The position numbers and the translations under genes are program-made. The notes beneath the pieces are model-generated. The model worked only from the letters and a program-made list of their open reading frames with translations. It was not told the origin of the DNA and searched no databases. A stretch of 64,000 nucleotides of DNA from an uncultured Candidatus Saccharibacteria bacterium (GTDB taxonomy: Bacteria > Patescibacteriota > Minisyncoccia > Phycocordibacterales > UBA9973). Positions 10,043 through 43,599 of the stretch are shown one piece after another. How positions within the stretch are numbered: the stretch's first letter is position 1; each line of letters opens with the position of its first letter. The stretch is taken from NCBI GenBank assembly GCA_964404925.1, contig CAYOLW010000002.1, positions 38,995 to 102,994 on the forward strand, in the 5' to 3' direction.

Positions 10043-10048
10043 AATAAA

Positions 10049-10366
10049 TTATTTCAAAATCCCATCTCCGAAAAGAAATACAATAACAGCGACTATTATC
10101 GTTATCGCTGCAGTCCAAGCAGATATTCGGATACTTTTTTCCTGTATTTTTTGAGACTGTTCTTGAGACATCAAACTGTCCCTCATAGCTTTTTCTTGAA
10201 GCCCTAGAGAGTCTAGAGAATTTCTCTCTAGCATGGTAACTAGGGTTCCACACTGGCTGCAAAGGAATAGAGAATTACTCTTCCTGTCGCCACTGTCAGC
10301 ATCCATATGTAGTTCCCAGTCATGATTACAATTTTTAAATTTTGCTCTATATTGTCCTATTCCCAT
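10049..10366 (-). CDS. small zinc-ribbon protein with C-terminal transmembrane anchor
   Basis: 105 aa: CNHDW...CSQCG Cys/His cluster, then a C-terminal hydrophobic helix ISAWTAAITIIVAVIVFLF. Confidence 0.55.
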   Translation of the reverse strand: MGIGQYRAKFKNCNHDWELHMDADSGDRKSNSLFLCSQCGTLVTMLERNSLDSLGLQEKAMRDSLMSQEQSQKIQEKSIRISAWTAAITIIVAVIVFLFGDGILK

Positions 10367-10371
10367 AATAG

Positions 10372-11823
10372 TTATATTGTTTTAGGTAGTAAGTTTTTTA
10401 ACAACTTTTCTCCAAGGTAATTATAGATACTGCCTTCAGTAGTAAAATCTGTCGTTTCATTCCAAGTTAATGAAGCAATTGTTTTACCAACTATAACTTC
10501 CCATGGTTTATCTATACCCATTATACCCAGAACCAATATTCTTAAAGATTTTATCTTTAAATTTTTTCTATCATAATCAGCTTGTTTGAAAGCAATCATA
10601 TCTTCAAACTGAGGGTGCGATTTTCCAGTTTTTTCAGTAATCCACTCATCCATTTTTCCTTGTAGAACTTCCCATGTATTGCCCAACGAAGACAAGACCT
10701 CATTAGTTAATAATAAGTTTTCAGCGCTATAACACTTTAATTTTAATTTTATTATAGGTAAATCATCTGAAAGATCAGTTTCTGGTGTATCATCTCGATC
10801 GCGCAAGGAGTAGGCCCTTGCTTTATCATAGACACTTTCAATGATATTTTTTACTTCGGTTTCAAAAGGACCTATTTCTTCTACGCTTCCACAAACACAA
10901 GGATAAATTTTAATTTTCCCTTGTGCCGTCCTGACTGCTTGTTGCCATATTCGCTCGTCATCCTCACCCTCAACAAGTAACACAGGGGCTTCGTTAAAAA
11001 TGTTTGATAGAGGATGTGCACCAAATATAGGCAAAACCTTTTTGTAAATATCTGATATTGGCTTAAACTCAAGGTCCTTTTGTCCAGGAGACAGAAAACT
11101 TAAATTAACATCAGTATACGACTCTAGTGCACCCAATATTGCTGTACTGTGTGTAACTACGATAACCTTGAAGTTATTTTCCTCAACCAGATTTTTTAAA
11201 AAATGCATTAAACGTACCTGTAAATCGGGATGAAGATGCACATCTGGCTCATCTAAAAATAAAAAATTATCTTTTCCAGCAACACATTCTTTACTAAATA
11301 CTAAACATTCAATGCCCAATGATATTAATTCGCTTTCTCCGCTACTTATTGATTCTGGTCCTATTTCTGTCGTAGTTCCTTTGTTATAAATCTTGAAAGT
11401 ATTATCATTTCTTTTTATTTCTATATTATCTAATAGAGAATTTATTTTTGTTATGTAAAGGTCGAAATTATAATCTGTATCTGCTCTTTTGGCACCTTCA
11501 ATTTCTCTTAGAACTAACCACTCTAATTTTTTATATTGGGCGACACTTTGTTGTTTAAAGTTTGGTGTTTGATTTCTACGTCTTTGACCTGGAAGCCAGT
11601 TTACATCGCTTGCTAATGAATTTTCCATTCCTGCATCATAATTCAAAGAGCCACCGCGTTCAGGTGATATATATTTAGTTTTACCATAAGTTTCATTATG
11701 GGAAGATATGTGTTGTTCAACTTTCCTAATGAAAGTACTTTTGCCAGAACCATTCTTACCTAAAACGATATTTATCTTGCTCAGTCCTTTTAATGTGTAT
11801 CCATTAGCATCTAATATATCCAT
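10372..11823 (-). CDS. OLD-family nuclease: ABC-type ATPase domain fused to a Toprim domain
   Basis: Walker A GKNGSGKST, signature-like ISSGESELISLG, Walker B/H-loop FLFLDEPDVHLHP, switch VIVVTHS. The C-terminal Toprim glutamate sits in VLLVEGEDDERIW and the DxD motif in LRDRDD. Confidence 0.75.
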   Translation of the reverse strand: MDILDANGYTLKGLSKINIVLGKNGSGKSTFIRKVEQHISSHNETYGKTKYISPERGGSLNYDAGMENSLASDVNWLPGQRRRNQTPNFKQQSVAQYKKLEWLVLREIEGAKRADTDYNFDLYITKINSLLDNIEIKRNDNTFKIYNKGTTTEIGPESISSGESELISLGIECLVFSKECVAGKDNFLFLDEPDVHLHPDLQVRLMHFLKNLVEENNFKVIVVTHSTAILGALESYTDVNLSFLSPGQKDLEFKPISDIYKKVLPIFGAHPLSNIFNEAPVLLVEGEDDERIWQQAVRTAQGKIKIYPCVCGSVEEIGPFETEVKNIIESVYDKARAYSLRDRDDTPETDLSDDLPIIKLKLKCYSAENLLLTNEVLSSLGNTWEVLQGKMDEWITEKTGKSHPQFEDMIAFKQADYDRKNLKIKSLRILVLGIMGIDKPWEVIVGKTIASLTWNETTDFTTEGSIYNYLGEKLLKNLLPKTI

Positions 11824-11875
11824 AGGTATTAATTATACTTTAAATTAGTTAAATTTATAGCATCGAAGATACATA

Positions 11876-11906
11876 CAAAAACAGCCCCAATCTGGGCTAT
11901 TTTTGT
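11876..11906. terminator. bidirectional rho-independent terminator downstream of tRNA-Glu
   Basis: CAAAAAC-AGCCCCAATCTGGGCT-ATTTTTG. Confidence 0.6.
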
Positions 11907-11929
11907 ATGCTACTCGTGCTAGCTGTTGA

Positions 11930-12004
11930 TGGTGACCTCACGGAGAATCGAACTCCGATTAACGGATTGAAAACCCGTTGTCCTAACCGTTAGACGATGA
12001 GGCC
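11930..12004 (-). tRNA. tRNA-Glu (anticodon UUC), CCA encoded
   Basis: Reverse complement GGCCTCATCGTCTAACGGTTAGGACAACGGGTTTTCAATCCGTTAATCGGAGTTCGATTCTCCGTGAGGTCACCA, with anticodon loop TTTTCAA. Confidence 0.8.
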
Positions 12005-19813: not shown

Positions 19814-22063
19814 ATGTCAAATCAATCAATACCTCAAAAAGTATTTGATGCCGAAGTGAATCAAATTTGCGAGCTAGCTCCTGGTGTGCGCAAAATTACT
19901 CTAAAAATTCAGGAACCCTTTGTTTTTCAAGAAGCCCAATATATATGGTTGGAGCTTGTTTGTAATCCAGCTGATCCAAAAGGTAATCGACGAGCTTTTT
20001 CTATTTTTAATCAAAACAACAAAGACAATATGATTGAAATTGTTGTGCGAGTGAGTGTTAGTTTGTATAAAAAAAAATTATTTAGTTTAAAAATTGGGGA
20101 CAAGGTATTGATTCACGGTCCTTTTGGTAGTACTTTCAAGTTGGACAATATTGAAACACAACCTTGCCCAACTAAAATAGTTTTTATTGCTGGTGGAGTA
20201 GGCATCTCTGTTTTTTGGCCTACTTTGCGAAAAATATCACAAGATAAAATACCAATCTTGTGCCATTTGGTTTATTTAAACAAAGATAGAAAGTCAACTC
20301 CTTTTCTAGTTGAATTAGAAGAGTTTAAAAAACAAAATTCTTTTTTTAATTATAATATTGATTTCGGCTATTTTAATGTCGATGATTTATTAAAAATAAA
20401 TTTTTCTTTGGACGTAGATGTGGAGTGGTGGATTTCGGGTCCGCAGGGGATGGTAAATCATGTTTTTGGTGAATTAATTAAACAAAAGTTTTCTAAAAGA
20501 AAAATGCGATTTGAAAATTATTATCCCAACGACCCTAACTCTTTGACTTTTGATAAAATTAATCAATTACTTGAATCTACTGAAAGTAATATCTTTGTTC
20601 AAGCTATTCAAAATTCAACTAACCATACGGTTATAACCGATCCGGATGGCAAAATTTTGTTTGCTAACAAAGCTACTTTAAATATCACTCAATTTTCAGC
20701 TGATGAATTAATTGGACAAACTCCTAGAATTTGGGGTGGAATGATGGATGTAGATTTTTATAAATCTTTTTGGGGGAAGATTAAATCTGGTCAACGTTTT
20801 CAGGGTGAAGTTTTAAATCGTAGAAAATCTGGTCAATATTATAATGCAATTGCACACATTAATCCTATTTTAAATCACAATAAAGATATTGTTGGTTATA
20901 TTGGCACCGAAGAAGATGTCAGTTATATTCGAGAACAGGAAAAGCAGGCTACTTTGTATAAAAATCGTTTAGAGATGGCAACTCAATCTGCTAATTTGGG
21001 GGTTTGGGAGTGGAATTTGATAAAAAAGGAAATTGTTTGGAACGATAATATGTATCAAATATATGGTTTAATGAAAGATTCTTTTGAATTAACCGATAAT
21101 AATTGGCGTAATTGCATACATGTTGACGATGTAGAGATGCGAGATAAAAATATAAATGCGTTGATTGAAAAAAAAGAGTCTGTTCCTATTGATTTTCGTA
21201 TAAATTTAAAAAACGGTAAAATTCGTTATATTCGTTCTTATGCTTTATGTGAAAAAAATAGTAATAATCAAATAGAGAAGTTGATTGGTGTTAATTTAGA
21301 TATCACTAGAGAGAGGGAAGTTGATAAAGTCAAAACGGAGTTTGTCTCGTTGGCTTCACACCAATTACGTACACCATTATCAATTATCAATTGGTATACA
21401 GAAACTTTGTTAAGTAAAAAGATTGGTAGTATTAATACTAATCAAGAAAAATATTTGTCCGAAATATATAAAAATAGTCAAAAAATGACTAGTTTATTGA
21501 ATGCCTTACTAGATATTTCTCGCTTAGATTTAGGCACTCTTGTTGTTGAAACGAAACAAATCGATATTTGTATTCTTATACAAGAATGTTTAAAGGATTT
21601 GCAATATATCTTTTTATCTAAAGATATTCATCTTGTAGAAAAATACGAAATAAAAAAATTTATCTGCCTACTAGATGAAAATATTTTTCGTATTATTGTG
21701 CAAAATATTTTATCTAATGCTGTAAAATATTCAAAAAATAATAGTAAAATTTTAGTTAAAATCAAAAAAAATAATCCCGGTGAAATCTTGGGTGGTCGGA
21801 AGATAAACTCTAAAAGTATTTCAATTACCGTTGAAGATCATGGTATCGGTATTGCTAAAAAAGATGAACAAAAGGTTTTTTCTAAGCTTTTCAGAGCAGA
21901 AAATGCAAAAAAATATTCAACCGAAGGAACTGGCTTGGGTTTGTATTTAGTTAAATCAGTGGTGGAACATTCTGGTGGAATGGTCTGGTTTGAATCTACG
22001 GAGGGATTAGGAACAATTTTTTATATTGTTTATCCAGAAACAGGAATGCGATCGATAAAATAA
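19814..22063 (+). CDS. sensor histidine kinase with N-terminal ferredoxin-NADP-reductase-like FAD/NAD(P)-binding module, two PAS domains, HisKA and HATPase_c
   Basis: FNR-type motifs RAFSI (RxYS), GPFG, FIAGGVGISVFWP, ISGPQGM. PAS region follows. H-box FVSLASHQLRTPLS; G-boxes DHGIGI and GTGLGL. Confidence 0.75.
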   Translation: MSNQSIPQKVFDAEVNQICELAPGVRKITLKIQEPFVFQEAQYIWLELVCNPADPKGNRRAFSIFNQNNKDNMIEIVVRVSVSLYKKKLFSLKIGDKVLIHGPFGSTFKLDNIETQPCPTKIVFIAGGVGISVFWPTLRKISQDKIPILCHLVYLNKDRKSTPFLVELEEFKKQNSFFNYNIDFGYFNVDDLLKINFSLDVDVEWWISGPQGMVNHVFGELIKQKFSKRKMRFENYYPNDPNSLTFDKINQLLESTESNIFVQAIQNSTNHTVITDPDGKILFANKATLNITQFSADELIGQTPRIWGGMMDVDFYKSFWGKIKSGQRFQGEVLNRRKSGQYYNAIAHINPILNHNKDIVGYIGTEEDVSYIREQEKQATLYKNRLEMATQSANLGVWEWNLIKKEIVWNDNMYQIYGLMKDSFELTDNNWRNCIHVDDVEMRDKNINALIEKKESVPIDFRINLKNGKIRYIRSYALCEKNSNNQIEKLIGVNLDITREREVDKVKTEFVSLASHQLRTPLSIINWYTETLLSKKIGSINTNQEKYLSEIYKNSQKMTSLLNALLDISRLDLGTLVVETKQIDICILIQECLKDLQYIFLSKDIHLVEKYEIKKFICLLDENIFRIIVQNILSNAVKYSKNNSKILVKIKKNNPGEILGGRKINSKSISITVEDHGIGIAKKDEQKVFSKLFRAENAKKYSTEGTGLGLYLVKSVVEHSGGMVWFESTEGLGTIFYIVYPETGMRSIK

Positions 22064-32466: not shown

Positions 32467-33762
32467 ATGAAAAATCTTTTTAAAAAAGTTGTTACTAAAG
32501 TTTTAATTTTTGAATCCAAGCTGGTTATTCGGAAATATAATCCAAAAATAATTGCTGTCACGGGTTCCGTGGGCAAAACATCTACCAAGGATGCTATTTA
32601 TACTGTTATTTCAAAATTTGCCTATGTTCGTAAAAGTGAAAAAAGCTACAACAGTCAAATAGGATTACCTTTGACCGTGCTCGGCTTACCAAATGGTTGG
32701 AATAATCCGCTTGTCTGGACTGCAAATATTTTACGAGGTTTGTGGCTCATCATTTGGCCACATAAATATCCGAGCTGGCTAGTGCTTGAGGTTGGTGTTG
32801 GTAAGCCAGGAGATATGGCTGAGACAGCAGCCTGGCTGCGTACTGACATTGTGGTTATGACAACTATTCCTGAAACACCGGTCCATATTGAATTTTTTCA
32901 TTCTAGGAAACATTTGGTGGATGAAAAAGCTGAGCTTATAAAAACATTGAAAAAAAATGGAACCTTGATATTAAATGCTGACGACTCAACTATACTAGAA
33001 ATGAAATCCAGAACTAGAAATATAGTTGTGACTTATGGATTTAATGAAGATTCTGATTTGCGAGCTAGTGAAGAAAAAATAATGTATAGCGAGAGCGGCG
33101 CTCCAGAAGGTGTGACTTTTCGTATTGATGCTTCGGGCAAGAGTTTGCCAGTAGTCATGAAAGGAGTGTTTGGACAGAATCATATATATTGTGGACTAGC
33201 GGCTGTTGCTTGCGCCTATGTTTTGAAATTTAGTTTACTTGAAGCTATTGATGCTTTGGTTGTGCATGAGACTCCGGTTGGTAGGATGAAAGTTTTGAAG
33301 GGGATAAATGATATTGTAATTATTGATGATAGTTATAATTCTTCACCTATTGCGGCAGAGTCAGCTGTGTCTACCTTGGGTAAAATAGAAACCAAGGGTA
33401 GGAAAATAGCCGTATTAGGAGACATGCTGGAGCTTGGCAAACACACCGAGGAAGCACATCGTAATATAGGTAAAATGGCCCAAAGTAGTGCAGATGTTTT
33501 AGTAGTGGTTGGCCCGAGAGCTAAATTCTTTAAAGAAGGTGCTGTATCGGTAAAAATGCCTGAAAAAAATATCCATGATTTCAATACATCGGTTGAGGCT
33601 GCAGAGTTTATGAAAGGTTTTGTCCAAAACAGTGATATTGTACTGGTGAAAGGTTCACAAGGTATGCGAATGGAGAGAGTGGTAGTGGCCCTATTAGCAG
33701 ATTATGAAAAGCAGAAAAATTCTGTACCGAGACAAGACAGAGAATGGTTGGCTAAAAATTAA
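32467..33762 (+). CDS. murF: UDP-N-acetylmuramoyl-tripeptide--D-alanyl-D-alanine ligase
   Basis: IAVTGSVGKTSTKD P-loop, Mur ligase central and C-terminal domains. Confidence 0.9.
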   Translation: MKNLFKKVVTKVLIFESKLVIRKYNPKIIAVTGSVGKTSTKDAIYTVISKFAYVRKSEKSYNSQIGLPLTVLGLPNGWNNPLVWTANILRGLWLIIWPHKYPSWLVLEVGVGKPGDMAETAAWLRTDIVVMTTIPETPVHIEFFHSRKHLVDEKAELIKTLKKNGTLILNADDSTILEMKSRTRNIVVTYGFNEDSDLRASEEKIMYSESGAPEGVTFRIDASGKSLPVVMKGVFGQNHIYCGLAAVACAYVLKFSLLEAIDALVVHETPVGRMKVLKGINDIVIIDDSYNSSPIAAESAVSTLGKIETKGRKIAVLGDMLELGKHTEEAHRNIGKMAQSSADVLVVVGPRAKFFKEGAVSVKMPEKNIHDFNTSVEAAEFMKGFVQNSDIVLVKGSQGMRMERVVVALLADYEKQKNSVPRQDREWLAKN

Positions 33763-35182: not shown

Positions 35183-35283
35183 GGCCTCATCATTCAGTTA
35201 GGACAAGGGTTTGTCTTCCGCTGAGAGGAGTGAGCTTGGGCAATGGACCCGAGCGCAAGGCCGGAAGCTGTCGAGCTGAGGCG
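35183..35283 (+). ncRNA. tRNA-like degenerate fragment within a candidate structured RNA
   Basis: Shares GGCCTCATC and TTAGGACA with the tRNA-Glu 5' half 180 nt downstream, then diverges. Nested complementarity: GCCTCA/TGAGGC and CTTCCG/CGGAAG. Confidence 0.3.
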
Positions 35284-35360
35284 GGGTAGCAGAAATTTTT
35301 AGCAAAAAATTATCTGTGACCGATTCTCAGAATCGAACTTTGAAAAATTTAAAATATATT

Positions 35361-35432
35361 GGCCTCATCGTCTAACGGTTAGGACAGCGGGTTCTCAATC
35401 CGCTAATCGGAGTTCGATTCTCCGTGAGGTCA
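35361..35432 (+). tRNA. tRNA-Glu (anticodon CUC)
   Basis: GGCCTCATCGTCTAACGGTTAGGACAGCGGGTTCTCAATCCGCTAATCGGAGTTCGATTCTCCGTGAGGTCA; anticodon loop TTCTCAA. Confidence 0.8.
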
Positions 35433-35623
35433 CATGAGCGAAAAGCAGCTAAACTGCTTTAGCTGCGAGCGAAGTGTGAAGACGGAGGCATAATTCGCCA
35501 GTAGGCGAATAGCCGAGTCCGGGGCTGGAAAATTTGCGAGTGACGACGAGTAAATTATTGTAGCTCACACTATTTAAGTACGCGAAGCGTTCAAAATTCG
35601 GATGTCCGACGTCCGAAAACATT

Positions 35624-36520
35624 ATGAAAAAGTATATAAATTATCTATTATTTTTATTGGTAATATTAGGGATAATATATTTCTCTCTCAATTCATTTTT
35701 ACTGATAAATATTTTAAATATAAATTTACGATCTGTATATGACTTTATATATGACTGGCAACAGTTAATTGGTGCATTTTTAGGTGCATTAACTCCAATA
35801 GCACTTTTCTTGATAAATGAAAAATATCAAAAGAAACAAAAAAAGAAAGCACATCTTTTGCTGTTAGAAAAAAGTATTATTTTAGCAATAAACAATTTGA
35901 GCGATATAGACAATATGCTCCATCGTTTCAATAGTAATCAACTTACAGTAGCAAAACAAAGAATAGCGAATGAGTCATTAAAAAATCAATATTCTGTTGG
36001 GCAGATTTTCATACCCCTTACAGCTACCTTTTCTTTTTCTGATGAGTTAATGAATGAAACCACAGACAGTAATTACATAGAAAATCTCAAAATGGATGTT
36101 TATGCCACATCAAAAGAACTGCCTATTTTGTTACAAGATCTTAACAGGCAATTTGATAGAAACATAAACCTCAATACCCAAATATCAATAGCAAAATTAA
36201 ATGACCCTAAAATGCAAAATACAGTATTTTTATCTAATATTACTGACTTTGAGAAGTATTTATATGCCGAAGTCTTTGGACATAACATTCCAGTATATTT
36301 AAGAAAGCTCGTGACATTACTTATTGCTTTAAAGAAAATGAATAGCTTAGGGTTAAAAAAATGGAGAGCGACATTTCCTTTTAAACAACCATATACACAA
36401 GAAATTGATGAAAAAATATCAGCATATTTCTCCGAAGAGATAAATAATAAAATAAAAGAATTAGATAAAAGTTTCAAATCAAAACTTTTATTAGTTGAAG
36501 AGAAAAGTAGTATAGTTTAG
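35624..36520 (+). CDS. hypothetical membrane protein (two N-terminal TM helices)
   Basis: 298 aa, very AT-rich, no recognisable family. Confidence 0.5.
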   Translation: MKKYINYLLFLLVILGIIYFSLNSFLLINILNINLRSVYDFIYDWQQLIGAFLGALTPIALFLINEKYQKKQKKKAHLLLLEKSIILAINNLSDIDNMLHRFNSNQLTVAKQRIANESLKNQYSVGQIFIPLTATFSFSDELMNETTDSNYIENLKMDVYATSKELPILLQDLNRQFDRNINLNTQISIAKLNDPKMQNTVFLSNITDFEKYLYAEVFGHNIPVYLRKLVTLLIALKKMNSLGLKKWRATFPFKQPYTQEIDEKISAYFSEEINNKIKELDKSFKSKLLLVEEKSSIV

Positions 36521-36526
36521 GTTTTT

Positions 36527-37270
36527 ATGAAAAAAATAAACAAAACAAATACAGACATTGTGGCAATTAAAGAGCAAAATCAAGTCTCTGTCCTTAGAGA
36601 TCCAAATTTATTAAAACCATTTTTGGAACAACCAAAACTAAAGATTGCAGAATTTATTACAGGAGCTTTATCTAATGGTCTTTCAGATTGGACAAAGATA
36701 GGCGGTAGGTTGGTTCAAGGAGTAATAGTTGGAAATTTAATGACACAAGTTGGAAGAGAGATAAATAAACTCATAGATGAAGGAAAAATTAAAGAAAACT
36801 ATGCTGAAACAAAATATGGATTTAAATCATTAGAAGAATTATTGAAATTTATTGATAGTGAAGCACCCGACGAAGATAGATTTAATGCTGTGAAAGCGAT
36901 GTTTTTTGCTTTAAATAGCGTTGACGTGAAAAATTTAGGTGAAGAAATATTGCGTTATCAGTTATTTCATGTATCAACCAAATTGAGTTCATCTCAATTA
37001 TTAACTATGAGAGCTGCATATGAGTTTAAGAAAAATCATACACAACATAGTAGCGCTGAGGCGTGGTTGCAAGATATTTCAAAACAAATAGGTCATAACT
37101 CTAAAGGTTTAGTAGAAAATGATGAAACTGTTTTAGAACAGGAAAAATTAATTACAGGCAGGACATATAATGACAGAAGTGGAGTTAGGGGTCACAATGG
37201 CAGATTGAGTGATTTTGGAATTTCATTAGTTGAATATATATTAAAGTATGAAAATTATATTGAAGAATAA
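36527..37270 (+). CDS. hypothetical soluble protein, operon partner of the upstream membrane protein
   Basis: 247 aa, no recognisable motif; starts 7 nt after the upstream stop. Confidence 0.5.
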   Translation: MKKINKTNTDIVAIKEQNQVSVLRDPNLLKPFLEQPKLKIAEFITGALSNGLSDWTKIGGRLVQGVIVGNLMTQVGREINKLIDEGKIKENYAETKYGFKSLEELLKFIDSEAPDEDRFNAVKAMFFALNSVDVKNLGEEILRYQLFHVSTKLSSSQLLTMRAAYEFKKNHTQHSSAEAWLQDISKQIGHNSKGLVENDETVLEQEKLITGRTYNDRSGVRGHNGRLSDFGISLVEYILKYENYIEE

Positions 37271-37397
37271 AATAAGAGTACTCAAAAGTAAAAACTGGTT
37301 TGAAAACAGCGATACATCGTATACATAAGTTTTAAAAGCACAAAAGACTCTTTACTTGATTGAATACTTGGTTCCAATCTCATATAATTAAACTCAC

Positions 37398-37916
37398 ATG
37401 AACTTTATTGTTATAAACGGCCCATCTTGTGTAGGAAAAAGCACAACAATCAACCATTTAATGGAAACCAAGGACGGATATTTCCATTTGTCTTATGACA
37501 AAATTAAGAGAAATTTCTCTAGATATGAATCAGGCAAATATGTTAATGAAATCTTCAGCCTTTTGTTCGTAATGGAGAAAAACATTTGCGAACAAGGTTT
37601 AGATATTTTGACCGATATAGCTGTATGGCGGGAGAATAGAGAAAAAATAATTGAAATCGCAAAGCAGTATAACTATCAAATATTTGAAATTAATTTAGAA
37701 GCCCCATTTGATGTTGTGCTAGAAAGATTTAGAAATCGAGTAAACGAGTCCATAATAAATCCAGAGAAGAAACTCGCCAATACATCTGAAGTAAGACTAA
37801 AAGAAATGTTTGATATATACGAAGAAGGGAAGAATAAAAATGCCTTAACGTTGCGGACAGATCAATTAACTCCTCAAGAAATAAAAGAGCAGATTTTGGA
37901 TTATATAAATAGATAA
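37398..37916 (+). CDS. P-loop kinase-like protein (AAA_33/chloramphenicol-phosphotransferase-like fold)
   Basis: N-terminal Walker A INGPSCVGKST; 172 aa. Confidence 0.55.
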   Translation: MNFIVINGPSCVGKSTTINHLMETKDGYFHLSYDKIKRNFSRYESGKYVNEIFSLLFVMEKNICEQGLDILTDIAVWRENREKIIEIAKQYNYQIFEINLEAPFDVVLERFRNRVNESIINPEKKLANTSEVRLKEMFDIYEEGKNKNALTLRTDQLTPQEIKEQILDYINR

Positions 37917-38311
37917 TAAATACAAATATTCTATTTATCGCCATAAGTTCTAATCACACCTTTCAGCTATTGACTTTTCTATTATTTGTGTTAATCTGCA
38001 GTTAAATTTTAGCTCGTTGAAATAAGAAAGTGACGGGTTGGGGAATGATTCTAGCCTCTAATTATTTAGGGTTTTGAATCATTCACCTTAACTCTTCACT
38101 TAAACAAAACAAAAAAATCATGGAAGGAAAAACCATCCTTTGGATTATAGGAGGCCTCGTCCTGTATTTACTTGTTGGCTACATAAATGCATTGAGAGTC
38201 AGAAACTCTGCTCGGGGACTTTCAGCCACTCTTCAAATACCAATGAAACACGACAACTTAGACAAGACCATAATTTTTTTCTGGATTTTCAAAATGTTCA
38301 AATTTTAAACC

Positions 38312-38629
38312 GTGCTATCTATGGCTAACTTCTTTTTGTATTTGGACTGTCTTGTAACAAACAAGGTCTCTCGATTCTCGCTTCTTCTTTTCGCCTTAGG
38401 TTTTTTTCTGATGCGAAAGTATAATTGGATTTTTTTTCCGATTGTGCTTTTTGTAATCGGCGGAATCCTATTCTTTTTCACAGGTTTTGGGCTTAATAGT
38501 TACATTCTCTGTAAGAGAATGTGTAATATTGTTGAAAGTCGTGGATTTCTAGAGGTCTCTGAAGACGACATAGACACACCCTGTGCCTCAGCCGCCTTTA
38601 AGGTGGCATCAAGAAGATATAGTAAATAA
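38312..38629 (+). CDS. hypothetical membrane protein
   Basis: 105 aa with two or three hydrophobic helices; weak call. Confidence 0.3.
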   Translation: MLSMANFFLYLDCLVTNKVSRFSLLLFALGFFLMRKYNWIFFPIVLFVIGGILFFFTGFGLNSYILCKRMCNIVESRGFLEVSEDDIDTPCASAAFKVASRRYSK

Positions 38630-38857
38630 AATATAATCCAACGCATACCCGCTTTCACAAAACAGTTAATCTGCTAAGTGTTAGCGGGTTTTCTGTTTTT
38701 CGGTTATCTTGCATCTAAGCAAATATAATGTAGTATTCAATCGAATCAAATCGCGCCTGGCGAGTATCTCAGGTATCTCTATATATGAGAAAGCTCTTTA
38801 TACTTTTTTTATTTTTTTACCCTGAATTTATTTTTGGTCAGCTAACCCTGCAGAGTA

Positions 38858-39286
38858 TTGTCGCTAAATTCGAGACTGAAATGGACACTTGTTTATCTGA
38901 CTGTTTCAAATACAGGTTGGATAACATTTATAAGTTCACCCAGGATAGCTATAGGTGACCCTCATTTTTTTCCATTCCCTCACAAGACTATTTGGATCAG
39001 AGATTCTTCTGATTTGGAAATGCTAGTAGAGGAGGTGTCTCATTCATACCAATGGCAACAAAAAGGCGGTAAGTTTCGTTTAGTTACCGCTGCCAGTGGA
39101 CTATATCTAAAGGCTGCTTGGTTATCTGTTTGGAAAAAAGATGGTAAAAAATTAACACTTTGGCAAAGATATTCAGACTTTGCCTATGAGCCCATGCGGC
39201 ACAAGTTCTGGGCCTATGAATATGAGGCTCACAATGAAATTGTTCGAGATATGTGGAAGTATTTGGGTTGCAAGGACAGTTTTTGA
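38858..39286 (+). CDS. hypothetical protein, possibly the 3' part of a frameshifted secreted-protein gene
   Basis: TTG-initiated ORF. An ATG frame from 38786 encodes a signal-peptide-like MRKLFILFLFFYPEFIFG and stops at 38953 inside this ORF. Confidence 0.35.
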   Translation: MSLNSRLKWTLVYLTVSNTGWITFISSPRIAIGDPHFFPFPHKTIWIRDSSDLEMLVEEVSHSYQWQQKGGKFRLVTAASGLYLKAAWLSVWKKDGKKLTLWQRYSDFAYEPMRHKFWAYEYEAHNEIVRDMWKYLGCKDSF

Positions 39287-39298
39287 AAGTAAATCTTA

Positions 39299-39341
39299 AA
39301 AGACTATGCAGTAGTATGAACTAACGCATAGTCTTTTTTTA
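39299..39341 (+). terminator. rho-independent terminator
   Basis: AAGACTATGC-(16 nt loop)-GCATAGTCTTTTTTT. Confidence 0.75.
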
Positions 39342-39382
39342 TTGTTATAATATAGTCATTATTAATTATTAAATATAATTAT

Positions 39383-39547
39383 ATGGGAATAGAAGCAGGT
39401 TATTCAAAAAAGGGTACAGAGACATGTCCATCGTGCAATGGTGATGGTGTAATAAAAACACGTATTGAAAGCAATAGCGAACTACAATTCCGTACAGATA
39501 CATGTCCTACCTGTAAAGGTTCTGGGCAAGTACCAGCCAGGAAATAG
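39383..39547 (+). CDS. small zinc-ribbon protein (54 aa), hypothetical
   Basis: CPSCNG...CPTCKG, two CxxC pairs. Below the 60 aa ORF-track cutoff, so I translated it by hand. Confidence 0.35.
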   Translation: MGIEAGYSKKGTETCPSCNGDGVIKTRIESNSELQFRTDTCPTCKGSGQVPARK

Positions 39548-39575
39548 GTTTACTGATAAATAGTAATTTTTGCTA

Positions 39576-40011
39576 TAATACTGGCACAGATGCCGACCAA
39601 GAAAATTAAGAAAATATTAGTGGTAGAAGACGAGCGCCCAATGGCACATGCGCTTGATTTAAAGCTGACCCATGAAGGGTTCACTGTGACCGTAGCTTAT
39701 AACGGAGAAGAAGCACTAAAAGCTATGGAGGATACTGAATTTGATTTGGTTCTGCTTGATATCATGATGCCGAAGCTAGATGGATTTGGAGTCTTAGAAC
39801 AGATGAAGATTCTCAATTACAAATGGCCGGCGATAGTTTTGTCTAATCTGAGTCAGAGTGAAGACGAGAAAAGAGCTCGCGATTTGGGTGCAAATAAATT
39901 TTTTGTTAAATCCAATACTCCAATAATGAGAATTGTGGACTACGCAAAAGAAATTTTACGCGGGTAGTGTTATACTATTTAACAGATGAATATTGATGAG
40001 CAAAAATTAAT
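39576..40011 (+). repeat. upstream copy of the duplicated block (regulator promoter/5' end, then regulator 3' end plus pilB first 8 codons)
   Basis: 39576-39635 and 39862-40011 recur at 41765-41965. The 3' ~147 nt appear identical; the 5' ~60 nt carry 3 mismatches. Confidence 0.8.
39590..39967 (+). CDS. single-domain response regulator (CheY-like receiver)
   Basis: ILVVEDE...LLDIMMPKLDG...K; a paralogue of the receiver at 22104. Confidence 0.8.
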   Translation: MPTKKIKKILVVEDERPMAHALDLKLTHEGFTVTVAYNGEEALKAMEDTEFDLVLLDIMMPKLDGFGVLEQMKILNYKWPAIVLSNLSQSEDEKRARDLGANKFFVKSNTPIMRIVDYAKEILRG

Positions 40012-40016
40012 TTAAA
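39987..40016 (+). pseudogene. 8-codon pilB 5' stub (MNIDEQKL then I and a stop)
   Basis: Identical to the first 25 nt of the full pilB at 41941, then diverges into the insert. Confidence 0.5.
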
Positions 40017-40019
40017 TAT

Positions 40020-41054
40020 ATGGAAATCAATCAAGAAATAACAGAAGTAGAGCAGGGTGTTAAAGAGTATATAAAAAAAGATAATGGTTTTACTCTTATA
40101 GAGATAATCATGGTCATTGTTGTAATAGCGATTCTGGCAAGTTTGTCACTTGTGGTTTTTTCTGAAGCAAGGAAAAAAGCAAGAGACACACAACGTATAA
40201 CTGCTATTCAAAATATTAATAAAGCAATTCAAGTATATATCACTGATTATGGTCTAGCACCAGATCTTGGTGATCCTGCGTGCCTTGAAGTCCTTAACCC
40301 TAATCCATCTTGTGTTGCTGATATTATGAATCATCCAAATGAATGGACAGATTTAGCAAAAGCGCTAGAGCCATACATCCATATTTTGCCCACCGATCCT
40401 TGTGTGAATTGTGTAAGTGTTTTTACTAATGTTGCTTATGCACAAACAGGTTTAGATTATAACTTTGTTTATAAAGCACCAGCAGGTATAGCATATGATT
40501 TACAGCAAGCAGGTCTATCGTTAGATTTTTTGGATAGTAGTACATATCGAATATATGCTGATAAACTTGAGAAATTTGATGGAGCATTTGGGTATGGTTA
40601 TAATTTACATGGTTTTTTTGCTTTAAATAATGATGCTTCTGTATTAGATGAGTTATGTCCTTTAAGTTCAAAAGAGTATTGTGATTTTTGGCCTGATTTA
40701 GTTAAAAAAAATACCGAAATTTGCAATTCGGGCGATTTGGAAACATGCATTATGTTGGCGCGTCACGGATTGTTTGATGGATCAAATGTTTTTAAATGTG
40801 TATTTAATACAGAAGAACAATGCGCTGAATGGGATTCTTTTCTATATAAAAACATAACAATATGTAATGAGGGAGAAAGGTCTAGTTGTGATTTGTTAGC
40901 AAAATATGATTTATACCCACAGATTACAGAATGTCCTTTAAAGGAACGTGATTGCCTTGCTTGGTTTGAAGAAATACAAAATAATTTATTATTATGTGAT
41001 TTTAAAGAAGAGACAGCTTGTAATTGGTTGGATAAAAATAATGTTTTTAAATAA
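40020..41054 (+). CDS. prepilin-type N-terminal domain protein with Cys-rich tandem repeats
   Basis: Class III signal GFTLIEIIMVIVVIAILAS after a 23 aa leader. The C-terminal half carries repeated units of the type xIC-N-xGx...C. Confidence 0.6.
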   Translation: MEINQEITEVEQGVKEYIKKDNGFTLIEIIMVIVVIAILASLSLVVFSEARKKARDTQRITAIQNINKAIQVYITDYGLAPDLGDPACLEVLNPNPSCVADIMNHPNEWTDLAKALEPYIHILPTDPCVNCVSVFTNVAYAQTGLDYNFVYKAPAGIAYDLQQAGLSLDFLDSSTYRIYADKLEKFDGAFGYGYNLHGFFALNNDASVLDELCPLSSKEYCDFWPDLVKKNTEICNSGDLETCIMLARHGLFDGSNVFKCVFNTEEQCAEWDSFLYKNITICNEGERSSCDLLAKYDLYPQITECPLKERDCLAWFEEIQNNLLLCDFKEETACNWLDKNNVFK

Positions 41055-41764
41055 TACTGGTTTTTGGGCAATTGCTTCTGCAAGTAGTTGTAAAAAATTT
41101 TGAATTAGAAAAGGACGCTTTTTTATTTAATGGGTCTATCAATTGAGGAAGTATAGCCATGTATTCTTGATGAGCTTTAGTCGTGTCTAAAATTACTCCC
41201 TTATCTGCTGAACTTTTTACTTGGACTAGATATAGAGTATGAACTTGATTATTGTCTTCTACTATCCAAGGAAAGAAAGGTATCTTTGGCACTTTCTGTA
41301 CCACTTAATATCATTTTTACTTCTGCTTGTATTTTTTCAGAATTACTACCTAATTCTTCAGCTAAAACCTACTTAATAATAAAAGAAATGTTATTAATTG
41401 GTATATTATACTGAGTCACTATTCTTAGTAATGCATTTTGTAATCTTGCTTCTGGTAAGTAGAGAACTCTTCTTTTTAATTCTTCTCCTTAATAAACTCC
41501 AACTACTCGTCTTTGGGTGGCTGATATATCTCTTTCTGAACTTTCTCTTAGATAAATTTTAATTAAGTTTTTGATTTTATCATTTGCTGGACCAGCATGT
41601 ATCTCGTTTTTAACAGGAACAGTCGCTGTAAAAGCAGGTTGTCCTCTGTCTCAACCCTTCTCAAAAATCAATTTAAAAAAATTATTTTCTGCCCCCCATA
41701 ACTAAACTGTAGCATTTTGGCTTTATATTTTAATAGAACTTTTTTTAAGTTTAAGTACGGGTTA
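41055..41764 (-). pseudogene. decayed gene of unknown identity
   Basis: Minus-strand translation gives three or more long fragments joined only across stops and frameshifts (for example DRGQPAFTATVPVKNEIHAGPANDKIKNLIKIYLRESSERDISATQRRVVGVY). The only intact ORF is the 85 aa piece at 41047..41304. Confidence 0.35.
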
Positions 41765-41965
41765 TAATACTGGCACATATGCCGACCAAGAAAACTAAGA
41801 AAATATTAGTGGTAGAATACGAGAAAAGAGCTCGCGATTTGGGTGCAAATAAATTTTTTGTTAAATCCAATACTCCAATAATGAGAATTGTGGACTACGC
41901 AAAAGAAATTTTACGCGGGTAGTGTTATACTATTTAACAGATGAATATTGATGAGCAAAAATTAA
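41765..41965 (+). repeat. downstream copy of the duplicated block (regulator remnant plus the true pilB start)
   Basis: Direct repeat of 39576-40011 with a ~225 nt internal deletion whose ends sit at a 9-nt microhomology (GAAGACGAG/GAATACGAG). Confidence 0.8.
41779..41922 (+). pseudogene. in-frame internally deleted response-regulator remnant (47 codons: MPTKKTKKILVVEYEKRARDLGANKFFVKSNTPIMRIVDYAKEILRG)
   Basis: The 5' 16 codons and 3' 31 codons of the regulator at 39590 are fused; the phosphoacceptor region is missing. Confidence 0.6.
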
Positions 41966-43599
41966 AAGACATACTGCTCCGCCAGAACTATATTACTGAA
42001 AAAGATTTCACCACTGCCGCTTTAAATGCAAAGAAAGAAAAGATTTCACCAGTCAGATACCTATTAAACCAAGGAATAATTTCTGAAGGTTTAATAGCTC
42101 AGGCATTAGCCGAGTCTTTTGGTGTTCCTTATTCAGATTTAAAGTTAAGAGAACCCTCCAAGGACGTAGTAAATCTAATTCCAGAGAAATTTGCTCGTGA
42201 AAAGAGGGTAGTATGTGTGTCTTCTAATAAAGACCAAGTAGTTGTAGCCACAGACAATCCATTGCAGCCAAAATTAGCTGAAGAATTAAATTCTATTTTG
42301 CATAATAGTAATATTTCTATTACGTACGCACTGCCTGAATCCATAGATCAAATTCTACGTTTTTATCAAAAATCATTAGATACCAGATTTTCTAAAATAA
42401 TTGCTGCTGGTAATAGGGTTGCTCCAGAAATATTAGAAGAAATATTTGAAGATGCGTACGCTTTTTCAGCTTCAGACATACATTTTGAACCTAATGCTAA
42501 AGACATCTCGGTTCGTTTCAGAGTGGACGGAGTATTGCAAGACGGGGGTAAACTTCCAAAAGAATTTTACGAAAATATTTTAAACAGAATCAAAGTTGAA
42601 AGCCGACTGCGCATAGACGAGCATTTTGCTGCACAAGATGGATCTATGCATTACGAATCAGGTACAGATGCAGAGAAAAAGTTTTTTGATTTACGTACAT
42701 CTATTGTACCGACGGTGGAAGGGGAAAAAGTAGTGTTGCGTGTTTTGTCTTCGTATGTAGAAGGTTTGTCTTTGGCTGATTTAGGTTTTAGTAAAGAAGA
42801 CGGAGAAAAGATTGAGAAAGCAGCGCATAAACCCTTCGGCATGATATTGGTTACTGGACCAACTGGTTCTGGCAAGACGACTACTCTGTACGGAGTGCTC
42901 AAAATATTAAATACTAGGGAAGTAAACGTCACCACCATCGAGGACCCTGTCGAATATAAAGTATCCGGTATAAATCAAATTCAGACTAATCTAGAGACAA
43001 ATTTAACCTTTGCTAAAGGTTTGCGTTCTATCGTTCGCCAAGACCCAGACATCATATTGGTAGGTGAAATCAGAGATGAGGAAACAGCCGAAATAGCGGT
43101 GAACGCTGCACTGACCGGGCATTTGTTGTTGTCGACTTTTCACGCCAATGATGCTTCTACTGCTATACCTCGACTACTTGATATGGGTATTGAACCTTTC
43201 TTGCTTTCATCAACCCTTGAATTAATTGTTGCTCAGCGTTTGGTACGCAAGATATGCGAGGCTTGTCGTTATAGCACCGAATTGTTAGTGAGTGATTTAG
43301 CAAAAAAATACAAAAATGTTCACGGTTTTTCTGGCAAGAATATTACCTTGTATCAAGGCAAGGGTTGTGACACATGTGCTGGTACTGGGTTTAAGGGACG
43401 TACAGCTATCTTTGAATTTATTGAGATAACTCCAGCCATGTCTGAATTAATGCTCAAGTCCCCGTCTTCGATTGAGATTCAAAAATTAGCCAAAAAAGAA
43501 GGAACTAAATCAATGTTTGAAGATGGGCTTGAGAAGGTTAAATCCGGTGTGACGACATTAGACGAATTACTACGGGTGGCACCTCCGCCAATCGAATAA
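41941..43599 (+). CDS. pilB: type IV pilus assembly ATPase PilB (GspE family)
   Basis: T2SSE N-terminal domain, Walker A GPTGSGKTTTLY, Asp/His boxes, and tetracysteine motif CEAC...CDTC. Confidence 0.9.
   Translation: MNIDEQKLKDILLRQNYITEKDFTTAALNAKKEKISPVRYLLNQGIISEGLIAQALAESFGVPYSDLKLREPSKDVVNLIPEKFAREKRVVCVSSNKDQVVVATDNPLQPKLAEELNSILHNSNISITYALPESIDQILRFYQKSLDTRFSKIIAAGNRVAPEILEEIFEDAYAFSASDIHFEPNAKDISVRFRVDGVLQDGGKLPKEFYENILNRIKVESRLRIDEHFAAQDGSMHYESGTDAEKKFFDLRTSIVPTVEGEKVVLRVLSSYVEGLSLADLGFSKEDGEKIEKAAHKPFGMILVTGPTGSGKTTTLYGVLKILNTREVNVTTIEDPVEYKVSGINQIQTNLETNLTFAKGLRSIVRQDPDIILVGEIRDEETAEIAVNAALTGHLLLSTFHANDASTAIPRLLDMGIEPFLLSSTLELIVAQRLVRKICEACRYSTELLVSDLAKKYKNVHGFSGKNITLYQGKGCDTCAGTGFKGRTAIFEFIEITPAMSELMLKSPSSIEIQKLAKKEGTKSMFEDGLEKVKSGVTTLDELLRVAPPPIE

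What the first reader, a model, noticed from the sequence alone, without database searches (positions are those of the whole stretch)
35624..39300. AT-rich block of unknown genes downstream of tRNA-Glu(CUC): membrane/soluble gene pair plus P-loop kinase
Immediately downstream of the tRNA and structured leader lie a 298 aa protein with two N-terminal TM helices and a 247 aa soluble protein (translationally coupled, no detectable motifs). They are followed by a P-loop kinase-like protein (INGPSCVGKST), several tiny membrane ORFs, and an apparently frameshifted secreted-protein gene, and the block ends at a strong terminator. Composition is markedly more AT-rich than the housekeeping flanks. tRNA-adjacent AT-rich blocks of unknown two-gene modules are where uncharacterised defence or toxin systems are usually found. 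The TM-plus-soluble pair is the candidate.
Basis: partly seen in the sequence, partly recalled or inferred. Interest (0 to 1): 0.55.

Follow-up and report, generated by a model that had tools for sequence, protein, structure and literature searches.

The report
Defence-type gene islet beside tRNA-Glu
Next to a tRNA gene in an uncultured Patescibacteria-like genome lies a small AT-rich patch of accessory genes. Its soluble protein is a distant relative of the phage-abortive-infection protein Abi-alpha. That protein and its membrane-protein neighbour turn out to be two independent cargo genes, not a conserved two-gene system.

Summary
The described features are present. tRNA-Glu(CUC) is followed by a structured 190-nt RNA, a 298-aa two-TM protein (A), a 247-aa soluble protein (B), an AAA_33 P-loop kinase (K), a frameshifted secreted-protein gene and a terminator. 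A, B and K have 29.3% GC, the lowest 0.5% of same-size windows.

A and B are not a conserved pair. None of 47 other non-redundant B loci carries A. None of the three other A contexts (six fetched loci) carries B. The closest B (81% identical, also at tRNA-Glu(CUC)) follows an unrelated 242-aa gene.

B belongs to a family of 788 clusters spread over many uncultured phyla. It has a C-terminal winged-helix-like domain. Its relatives give repeated, collinear, sub-threshold matches to Pfam Abi_alpha (AbiAlpha, a single-gene abortive-infection protein). In 6 of 47 loci B is nested between hsdM and hsdS of type I restriction-modification operons. Elsewhere it lies beside tRNAs, serine recombinases, IS elements, DpnI, PIN or TIR genes.

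A is an orphan family of 7 proteins. One relative sits at the end of an HsdM-HsdS-Abi_C-HsdR operon.

Best reading: this is an integrase-less, variable, defence-type islet with independent single-gene cargo. B is probably an Abi-alpha-like defence protein, but its function is untested. It is a new variant of a known kind and of moderate interest.

The parts
35183..35290 (+). Decayed tRNA-Glu-like fragment. Its first ~55 nt parallel the 5' part of the real tRNA. It is not a functional tRNA.
   Evidence: Read directly from the sequence. ARAGORN does not call it even with relaxed thresholds or introns allowed. Its fold is no better than shuffles (z = -0.63). No Rfam hit.
35361..35433 (+). tRNA-Glu(CUC), the anchor of the variable site.
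   Evidence: ARAGORN. Rfam tRNA at 58.2 bits. The same tRNA precedes A or B homologues in L001, L003, L016, L020 and L027.
35434..35623 (+). Structured tRNA trailer, which is also the leader of gene A. The conserved core is ~35434-35560. It belongs to no known RNA family.
   Evidence: z = -5.07. It is conserved next to tRNA-Glu(CUC) in L027 and L016, with 10 of 28 predicted pairs showing compensatory double changes. No Rfam match. The downstream gene differs between loci, so the element goes with the tRNA and not with the cargo.
35624..36520 (+). Gene A: a 298-aa protein with two N-terminal TM helices and a ~230-aa cytoplasmic all-helical domain. It is an orphan family.
   Evidence: ORF. Hydropathy. 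AF2 mean pLDDT 72, with long helices. Only 7 homologues found. No family or fold match. One relative sits at the 3' end of an HsdM-HsdS-Abi_C-HsdR operon.
36527..37270 (+). Gene B: a 247-aa soluble helical protein with a C-terminal winged-helix-like domain. It belongs to a large family distantly related to Abi_alpha (AbiAlpha).
   Evidence: Family size of 87, 327 and 788 hits in three searches. AF2 mean pLDDT 83. Weak winged-helix fold hits. Sub-threshold collinear PF14337 matches in relatives. Defence and mobile-element contexts.
37360..37388 (+). Promoter-like site (TTGAAT-17-TATAAT) just upstream of the kinase gene.
   Evidence: Consensus scan, 10 of 12 matches. This is a consensus match only. 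The number of such sites in the region does not exceed the shuffled expectation.
37398..37916 (+). Gene K: a 172-aa divergent P-loop (AAA_33) kinase-like protein. Its substrate is unknown.
   Evidence: AAA_33 at 38.3 bits against a cut-off of 27. Zeta_toxin is below its cut-off. Weak matches to polynucleotide kinase, PSTK, VakA and pVip-kinase. No relative in phage or plasmid collections or in any fetched locus.
38120..38629 (+). Two small hydrophobic ORFs (62 aa and 105 aa). Their coding status is unverified.
   Evidence: ORFs. Hydropathy. Not called as genes on the identical Logan contig. Exact sequences not in the protein collection. No homologue in the fetched loci.
38785..39286 (+). Frameshifted (pseudo)gene for a small secreted protein.
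   Evidence: The intact 169-aa homologue P0299 spans both reading frames. The same frameshift is present in an independent assembly.
39298..39345 (+). Terminator hairpin plus T-run that closes the block.
   Evidence: Inverted repeat I6. The sequence reads AAAAGACTATGC...GCATAGTCTTTTTTTTA.

Best explanation
The block is a small, integrase-less, variable islet at a tRNA-Glu(CUC) site just downstream of the dcw cell-division gene cluster (MraZ-RsmH-FtsL-PBP-MurF) of a Patescibacteria-like genome. Related lineages fill this site with different accessory genes. Here it carries independently acquired single-gene cargo, not a two-gene system.

Gene B is the most interpretable part. It belongs to a large, patchily distributed family that is a distant sister of Abi_alpha (AbiAlpha, EF2833 of Enterococcus faecalis), a single-protein abortive-infection defence. 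By inference, B's C-terminal winged-helix-like domain senses a phage-derived nucleic acid or protein. Its conserved N-terminal helical domain would then trigger premature lysis or growth arrest of the infected cell, as reported for AbiAlpha.

Gene A is an orphan membrane-anchored helical protein that also travels with defence loci. It probably acts on its own at the membrane, for example in exclusion or as an Abi-type effector.

K is a separately transcribed divergent P-loop kinase with an unknown substrate. The remainder of the block (small ORFs and the frameshifted secreted-protein gene) is decaying cargo.

Shown: the anatomy, the family sizes, the non-conservation of the pair, the genomic contexts and the sub-threshold Abi_alpha similarity. 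Inferred: any anti-phage activity and the sensing and effector steps.
For: The site is variable.
- MurF followed by tRNA-Glu(CUC) is conserved, but the cargo differs. L001 has B alone. L003 and L020 have A without B. L027 has an unrelated 242-aa gene followed by B. L016 has a B-like gene.
- A-K has 29.3% GC, the lowest 0.5% of same-size windows.
- B is better conserved than the adjacent housekeeping gene: 53% against 34% for MurF in L001. A is 54% against 48% for MurF in L020. This fits horizontal spread.
- L001 has an exact 19-nt repeat of the tRNA 3' end just before B.

B family.
- 788 clusters at 50% identity reach E <= 1e-3.
- Members occur in MAGs labelled Patescibacteria (Harrison-, Buchanan-, Nomura- and Saccharibacteria), Omnitrophota, Electryonea, Verrucomicrobiia, Terriglobia and Gammaproteobacteria, and in one MAG labelled archaeon.
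- PF14337 (Abi_alpha) matched 8 of 38 members, and 7 of 9 further relatives tested, at 17-26 bits against a cut-off of 29. The best E-value was 1e-5. The matches are collinear, with protein residues 58-236 aligned to profile positions 5-194 of 196.
- Two members carry precomputed PF14337 hits.
- AbiAlpha is a 272-aa single-gene abortive-infection protein that causes premature lysis (PMC6356687).

Contexts of 47 non-redundant B loci.
- Six are nested hsdM-B-hsdS in type I restriction-modification operons.
- Others lie next to tRNAs (Glu, Gln, Ile, Arg), serine recombinases, PIN_12, TIR_2, DpnI with MazE, or IS110/IS21 clusters.
- Genes embedded in type I restriction-modification operons are a documented predictor of defence function (10.1101/2024.01.29.577857; PMC11411939).

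Other support.
- One A relative lies in HsdM-HsdS-Abi_C-HsdR-A, beside SocA_Panacea and a sub-threshold PemK-like gene (22.7 vs 23.1 bits).
- The window's other tRNA-Glu(UUC) is also followed by a defence-type gene, an AriAB/OLD-like ATPase (PADLOC E = 1.7e-22).
Against: - The window's own B gives no Abi_alpha hit at E <= 10. All matches in its relatives fall below Pfam's gathering score.
- PADLOC finds nothing for A or B.
- No profile-profile comparison with genuine Abi_alpha sequences could be made.
- The B fold search shows only a generic winged-helix similarity (E > 0.2). That is equally compatible with a DNA-binding regulator.
- The window has no integrase, no att repeat and no restriction-modification genes. 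Mobility of this particular block is therefore inferred only from comparison with other loci.
- The recurrence of A or B at the same tRNA-Glu(CUC) site in five lineages could partly reflect vertical inheritance.
- Many B loci sit on short contigs with uninformative neighbours.
- No experiment exists for any member of either family.
Confidence: 0.55

Rival explanations
1. A and B form a lineage-specific two-component system. A would be the membrane-anchored effector and B the cytoplasmic sensor or regulator, acting together as a toxin or abortive-infection module.
For: The genes share a strand and are 6 nt apart. Both have very low GC (27.0% and 30.5%). No promoter-like site stands out between them. 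Both families occur separately in defence contexts. AbiAlpha's phenotype is premature lysis, which would fit a membrane partner.
Against: None of 47 other non-redundant B loci has an A homologue, and none of the 3 other A contexts has B. The closest B (81% identical), at the same tRNA, is preceded by an unrelated 242-aa soluble protein. B often stands alone directly after a tRNA or inside restriction-modification operons.
Confidence: 0.12
2. B is an ordinary winged-helix transcription regulator of whatever operon it sits in, including restriction-modification operons. It would not itself be a defence effector.
For: The only structural similarity is to winged-helix DNA-binding domains such as MepR/MarR, PerR/Fur, LexA and ORC2-WH. 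Dedicated regulators of type I restriction-modification systems and defence islands are known, for example RptR (PMC12255303).
Against: The fold hits are weak (E > 0.2) and cover only about 70-110 of 247 residues. The conserved N-terminal ~120 residues carry many invariant polar residues and have no regulator-like counterpart. B lies in the middle of restriction-modification operons, not upstream of them. Its neighbours are extremely varied. The only sequence-family signal is Abi_alpha.
Confidence: 0.15
3. The genes are vertically inherited, lineage-specific housekeeping or envelope genes of this Patescibacteria clade. They would simply be fast-evolving and AT-rich, and the defence association would be coincidental.
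For: A or B occupies the same position (dcw cluster, MurF, tRNA-Glu(CUC)) in at least five Patescibacteria lineages. There is no integrase or att site in the window. Other AT-rich stretches in the window carry ordinary genes, for example the PAS histidine kinase at 19814-22063.
Against: B occurs in MAGs labelled as at least six phyla plus one labelled archaeon. It is more conserved than MurF between genomes. It is nested in restriction-modification operons and flanked by IS elements and recombinases. The gene content at the site differs in every genome examined.
Confidence: 0.1

Closest known systems
AbiAlpha (Abi-alpha, EF2833 of Enterococcus faecalis V583 prophage 6; Pfam PF14337 Abi_alpha, formerly DUF4393)
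   Same: Both are single soluble proteins of about 240-270 aa with no TM segment. Relatives of B match PF14337 collinearly over almost the whole profile. Both are found in accessory or defence regions, and neither has a known biochemistry.
   Different: All B-family matches are below the Pfam gathering score, and the window protein gives no hit at all. AbiAlpha homologues are mostly prophage-borne in Firmicutes. The B family is absent from cultured phage and plasmid collections and lives in uncultured phyla, next to tRNAs or inside type I restriction-modification operons. Activity has not been tested.
Genes embedded in type I restriction-modification operons ('guilt by embedding'; for example PrrC, TgvAB, DarTG2)
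   Same: B is nested between hsdM and hsdS in 6 of 47 loci. One A relative follows hsdR in an operon that also carries Abi_C. This is the arrangement used to predict and validate new defence genes.
   Different: B has no sequence relation to PrrC, GmrSD or DarTG. In this window no restriction-modification gene is present, so any dependence on restriction-modification cannot apply here.
tRNA-adjacent genomic islands and defence islands
   Same: The block is directly 3' of a tRNA, has low GC, varies in content between relatives and includes pseudogenised cargo. A tRNA-like remnant lies upstream. One relative has an att-like tRNA-end repeat.
   Different: The block is only about 3.7 kb. It has no integrase or recombinase and no flanking direct repeats.
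AAA_33 / polynucleotide-kinase-like / zeta-toxin-like P-loop kinases (comparison for K)
   Same: K has a Walker A motif and the overall AAA_33 fold family above threshold. It shows weak full-length similarity to PADLOC VakA and pVip-kinase, to phage polynucleotide kinase and to PSTK.
   Different: No specific subfamily reaches its cut-off (Zeta_toxin scores 15.8 against 22.3). K is not linked to viperin, to an antitoxin or to an RNA-repair partner, and it is not found next to B or A elsewhere.

Membership tests
Abi_alpha / AbiAlpha (PF14337) | Sequence match to the PF14337 profile at or above the gathering score (29 bits) | tested here: not met
   The window's B gives no hit at E <= 10. Relatives score 16.8-26.1 bits with E = 1e-5 to 7e-3, collinear over profile positions 5-194 of 196. 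P0267 and P0295 carry precomputed weak hits. B is therefore a distant relative and not a Pfam-defined member.
Abi_alpha / AbiAlpha (PF14337) | Stand-alone soluble protein of about 200-270 aa that acts as a single gene | tested here: met
   B is 247 aa with no TM segment. Family members are 230-260 aa with variable neighbours and frequently stand alone. Whether a single gene is sufficient for function was not tested.
Abi_alpha / AbiAlpha (PF14337) | Location on prophages or in phage-resistance islands | tested here: inconclusive
   Defence or mobile contexts are common: type I restriction-modification nesting, DpnI, PIN, TIR, IS elements and recombinases. However, only 1 IMG/VR contig carries a relative and cultured phages carry none. 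The window block itself has no other recognisable defence gene.
Abi_alpha / AbiAlpha (PF14337) | Abortive-infection phenotype (premature lysis, loss of plaquing) | not testable with these tools
   This needs expression and phage challenge. The phenotype is described only for EF2833 (PMC6356687).
Conserved two-gene (TM + soluble) defence or toxin module | Co-occurrence and conserved adjacency of the two genes across genomes | tested here: not met
   A occurs without B in L003, L017-19 and L020-21. B occurs without A in 47 non-redundant loci. The closest B has an unrelated upstream gene.
Type I restriction-modification embedded accessory defence gene | Gene nested within an hsdM/hsdS/hsdR operon | tested here: inconclusive
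   This is met for the family: B lies between hsdM and hsdS in 6 of 47 loci, and A lies after hsdR in L017/L018. It is not met in this window, which contains no hsd homologue.
Integrative genomic island at a tRNA | Integrase or recombinase gene plus direct repeats duplicating the tRNA 3' end | tested here: not met
   The block contains no ORF that could encode an integrase. No serine-recombinase homologue is present. The window has no repeat of the tRNA 3' end apart from the other tRNA-Glu gene. An att-like repeat is seen only in the relative L001.
AAA_33 P-loop kinase (for K) | Match to PF13671 above the gathering score, with a Walker A motif | tested here: met
   38.3 bits against a cut-off of 27, with GPSCVGKST at residues 8-16.
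Zeta toxin (for K) | Match to PF06414 above the gathering score and an adjacent epsilon-type antitoxin | tested here: not met
   15.8 bits against a cut-off of 22.3. No small antitoxin-like partner gene with any family hit is present.

The most novel reading that the evidence does not exclude
The B family (788 clusters at 50% identity, Abi_alpha-like with a winged-helix domain) is a new, widespread single-gene anti-phage defence of Patescibacteria/CPR and other uncultured phyla, and it is repeatedly nested in type I restriction-modification operons. In this lineage it would have recruited the orphan membrane protein A as an effector partner, giving a new membrane-acting abortive-infection pair. 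In addition, the conserved structured RNA between tRNA-Glu(CUC) and the cargo may be a new RNA element controlling expression of whatever cargo lands at this site.
Probability: 0.1. Interest if true: 0.6.

Novelty: new variant of a known kind. Interest (0 to 1): 0.4.

Why it matters
Patescibacteria/CPR have tiny genomes, and how they resist phages is poorly known. This analysis links an unannotated protein family of 788 clusters to the AbiAlpha abortive-infection family and shows that it is repeatedly embedded in type I restriction-modification operons. The family becomes a concrete, testable defence candidate, and tRNA-Glu flanks emerge as places where these organisms keep such genes. The analysis also corrects the original hypothesis: the membrane and soluble genes should be tested singly, not as an obligate pair.

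Tried and rejected
- **Family libraries for A and B.** Pfam, PADLOC, NCBIfam and PHROGs gave no significant hit.
- **PDB sequence-profile searches for A and B.** Only noise was returned.
- **Foldseek against PDB and BFVD.** B gave only weak winged-helix similarity and A only generic helical bundles.
- **tblastn of B, a B relative and K against cultured phages and PLSDB plasmids.** Nothing relevant was found. Genuine Abi_alpha sequences could therefore not be fetched for a profile-profile test.
- **Is the gene upstream of the closest B homologue a diverged or frameshifted A?** No.
- **Are kinases near B in L014 and L011 related to K?** No, beyond the P-loop.
- **att repeats of the tRNA in the window.** None found.
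- **hsd or recombinase homologues in the window.** None found.
- **Upstream tRNA-like fragment as an intron-containing or unusual tRNA.** Rejected, because ARAGORN fails to call it and it is not unusually stable.
- **Leader as a known riboswitch or sRNA.** No Rfam match.
- **Leader as part of a B cassette.** Rejected. It is absent next to tRNA-Gln and tRNA-Ile B loci and present before non-B genes.
- **RptR-type regulator as an identity for B.** Rejected. RptR is an unrelated 79-aa four-helix protein.

Full report
**What is at the coordinates**

The window is AT-rich (mean 37.1% GC). It carries the dcw cell-division gene cluster ending in MurF (32467-33762), followed by a cupin gene and a VTT/DedA gene on the minus strand. 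The order of features after that is:

- tRNA-Glu(CUC) at 35361-35433.
- A 190-nt spacer that folds far better than shuffled controls (z = -5.07).
- ORF A, 35624-36520, 298 aa.
- ORF B, 36527-37270, 247 aa, starting 6 nt after A's stop codon.
- After a 127-nt gap that holds a promoter-like site, ORF K, 37398-37916, 172 aa, with Walker A GPSCVGKST.
- Two small hydrophobic ORFs, a frameshifted gene, and a hairpin plus T-run at 39298-39345.

A has two hydrophobic segments, at residues 10-28 and 46-64. B and K have none. K passes Pfam's AAA_33 threshold (38.3 bits against 27).

The frameshift is real. A 169-aa homologue (P0299) runs through both reading frames, and the window lacks about 8 nt after '...DNIYKF'. 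An independent Logan assembly is 100% identical over 36799-39735 and has the same lesion.

The low GC applies to A, B and K only (27.0, 30.5 and 31.8%). Together they are 29.3% GC, which is the lowest 0.5% of same-size windows. The 38.1-39.3 kb part is at the window average. The two small ORFs were not called as genes on the Logan contig, and the fetched loci contain no homologue.

**Is the A-B pair a module?**

It is not. The A family has only 7 members. The B family returned 87 hits in a word-indexed search and 788 cluster representatives in an exhaustive profile search. I fetched 62 loci with B homologues, which collapse to 47 non-redundant loci at 90% identity. None carries an A homologue.

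The three other A contexts lack B:

- L003: MurF, DUF454, tRNA-Glu(CUC), A, then unrelated small genes.
- L020/L021: tRNA-Glu(CUC), A, convergent with MurF.
- L017-L019: HsdM-HsdS-Abi_C-HsdR-A, with SocA_Panacea and a sub-threshold PemK-like gene (22.7 vs 23.1 bits) nearby.

The closest B (P0002, 81% identical) also lies after tRNA-Glu(CUC) and the same conserved trailer RNA. The gene between the trailer and B there is an unrelated 242-aa soluble protein. In L001 and L016, B or a B-like gene follows the tRNA directly.

So the site is shared, the cargo varies, and A and B are independent units that happen to be adjacent here.

**What is B?**

An AlphaFold2 model built from 38 family sequences is confident (mean pLDDT 83, above 95 for residues 120-240). 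It is all-helical apart from one small beta hairpin. Foldseek against the PDB and against viral models gives no significant global match. It gives only weak hits (E 0.26-3, probability up to 0.99) of about 70-110 residues to winged-helix DNA-binding domains such as MepR/MarR, PerR/Fur, LexA-N and ORC2-WH. From the secondary-structure order, the winged helix is H155-169, H177-188, H193-205 and the hairpin at 207-222. This assignment is my inference.

The alignment shows many invariant polar residues (Q74, E78, D110, K123, H190, R226 and others).

The only sequence-family signal is Pfam PF14337 (Abi_alpha):

- 8 of 38 family members match it, with a best E-value of 3.9e-4.
- 7 of 9 further relatives tested match at 16.8-26.1 bits (cut-off 29), with E-values down to 1e-5. 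The matches are always collinear and together cover profile positions 5-194 of 196.
- Two members carry precomputed PF14337 hits.
- The window protein itself does not hit.

Abi_alpha is named after EF2833 of E. faecalis prophage 6. That is a 272-aa single-gene abortive-infection protein which causes premature lysis on infection by a Picovirinae phage. Its biochemistry is unknown (PMC6356687). I therefore read B as a distant sister family of Abi_alpha and not as a Pfam-defined member.

**Genomic context of B**

The family occurs in MAGs labelled Harrison-, Buchanan-, Nomura- and Saccharibacteria, Omnitrophota, Electryonea, Verrucomicrobiia, Terriglobia and Gammaproteobacteria, and in one MAG labelled archaeon. 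I scanned 123 neighbours (two genes either side of B) against Pfam and PADLOC. The commonest neighbour families are type I restriction-modification subunits (Methylase_S 5, N6_Mtase 4, HsdM_N 3; PADLOC MTase_I 7, Specificity_I 5). Resolvase/Recombinase, TIR_2 and ResIII follow.

In six non-redundant loci, B is nested as hsdM-(0-2 genes)-B-(0-1 gene)-hsdS. Examples are L015 (HsdM-B-HsdS) and L008 (HsdM-NYN-B-Trypsin_2-HsdS).

Other loci show:

- A tRNA directly upstream: Glu-CUC three times, Gln and Ile once each, and Arg with two genes in between.
- Large serine recombinases (L006, L013) and a divergent PIN_12 gene (L028).
- DpnI, MazE and ORF6N (L078).
- An IS110/IS21/rve cluster in a 6.1-Mb genome (L077).

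B is more conserved between the window and L001 (53%) than the neighbouring MurF (34%). A is 54% identical to its L020 homologue, against 48% for MurF. In L001 an exact 19-nt copy of the tRNA 3' end lies just before B.

Nesting inside type I restriction-modification, BREX and DISARM loci is a published and experimentally validated predictor of defence function (10.1101/2024.01.29.577857; TgvAB, PMC11411939; DarTG2 between hsdS and hsdR, PMC12255303).

The B family is absent from cultured phage genomes and PLSDB plasmids. Only one IMG/VR contig carries it.

**What is A?**

A has positively charged residues (MKK) at its N-terminus and a KKQKKK run after TM2. This predicts an N-in/C-in topology with a cytoplasmic domain of about 230 aa. 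AF2 models that domain as long helices (mean pLDDT 72). No library or fold search gives a meaningful match. The only functional lead is context: the 3' end of a type I restriction-modification/Abi_C operon beside toxin-antitoxin-like genes. A membrane-acting exclusion or Abi-type role is a guess.

**K and the rest of the block**

K is a divergent AAA_33 kinase. It has weak full-length similarity to polynucleotide kinases, PSTK and the PADLOC VakA and pVip-kinase models. It has no relative in any fetched locus or in phages or plasmids. P-loop kinases near B in L014 and L011 are unrelated to it. I see no evidence that K works with A or B.

**The block as an island**

The block has no integrase, and no serine-recombinase or hsd homologue is found anywhere in the window. 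There is no att-like repeat of the tRNA 3' end. A decayed tRNA-Glu-like fragment lies 70 nt upstream of the tRNA.

The window's other tRNA-Glu(UUC), at 11930-12004 on the minus strand, is followed immediately by an AriAB/OLD-type ATPase (PADLOC E = 1.7e-22) in another AT-rich patch. So this genome keeps defence-type genes beside both tRNA-Glu genes.

**Verdict**

Its general intuition, that a tRNA-adjacent AT-rich block is a place for uncharacterised defence genes, is supported by comparative context. Its specific candidate, a TM-plus-soluble two-gene module, is not supported.

The best-supported explanation is a variable, integrase-less islet of independent single-gene cargo. B is an Abi_alpha-like, winged-helix-containing candidate abortive-infection protein. 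I put the probability that B is defence-related at about 0.55. The sensing and effector mechanism is inferred by analogy only.

Rival explanations are a lineage-specific A-B partnership (0.12), B as a plain regulator (0.15) and vertical housekeeping genes (0.10).

Novelty: a new variant of a known kind. Interest: moderate (0.4). The value lies mainly in giving a large unannotated family a testable assignment and in showing where CPR-like genomes keep such genes.

Noticed in passing
window 35434-35623 (core ~35434-35560); also L027 4008-4140 and L016 5766-5880: A conserved structured RNA lies directly 3' of tRNA-Glu(CUC). Its single-sequence fold has z = -5.07. It is shared with two other Patescibacteria lineages, and 10 of 28 predicted pairs show compensatory double changes. 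It has no Rfam family. The downstream gene differs in each genome, so the RNA goes with the tRNA and not with the cargo.
   Followed up: partly
window 35183-35290: A degenerate tRNA-Glu-like fragment lies 70 nt upstream of the real tRNA. Its 5' half, variable region and start of the T-arm parallel the tRNA, and then it diverges. It is not called by ARAGORN and is not unusually stable. It may be a remnant of a duplication or of an integration event.
   Followed up: partly
window 9368-12004 (minus strand): The second tRNA-Glu(UUC), at 11930-12004, is followed immediately by a 483-aa AriAB/OLD/PtuA-like ATPase (10372-11823; PADLOC AriAB E = 1.7e-22). A 224-aa gene with no match follows, in an AT-rich patch (30.6% GC at 9-10 kb). 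This is probably a PARIS/OLD-type defence locus.
   Followed up: partly
window 39574-41965: The response-regulator gene (39590-39967) is partly duplicated. Its first 61 nt (95% identical) and last 151 nt (99% identical) recur at 41763-41823 and 41815-41965, forming a 47-aa fused remnant just before PilB (41941-43599). Between the two copies lies a 344-aa type IV pilin-like gene (N_methyl motif) at 32% GC. This looks like an insertion or recombination scar in the pilus locus.
   Followed up: partly
L001 7801-7819 and 7972-7990: In the Harrisonbacteria relative, an exact 19-nt copy of the tRNA-Glu(CUC) 3' end recurs 171 nt downstream, 11 nt before the start of the B homologue. This is an att-like scar of site-specific integration at this tRNA.
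   Followed up: partly
L008 311-5656 (MAG labelled archaeon; same locus as L034): A type I restriction-modification operon carries three embedded genes, in the order HsdM - NYN - B homologue - Trypsin_2 peptidase - HsdS. This may be a multi-gene embedded cassette.
   Followed up: no
L001 12548-15211 (minus strand): The DnaB helicase of the Harrisonbacteria relative carries an intein with a LAGLIDADG homing endonuclease (Pfam families listed).
   Followed up: no
window 39383-39547: A stand-alone 54-aa protein consists only of a DnaJ-type CXXCXGXG zinc-finger module (34.7 bits against a cut-off of 32.7). It lies just after the block's terminator and before the response regulator.
   Followed up: no
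window 19814-22063: The only other stretch as AT-rich as A-K encodes a 749-aa protein that fuses an FAD/NAD-binding oxidoreductase-like N-terminus to PAS domains and a histidine kinase. Low GC is therefore not by itself a marker of foreign DNA in this genome.
   Followed up: no
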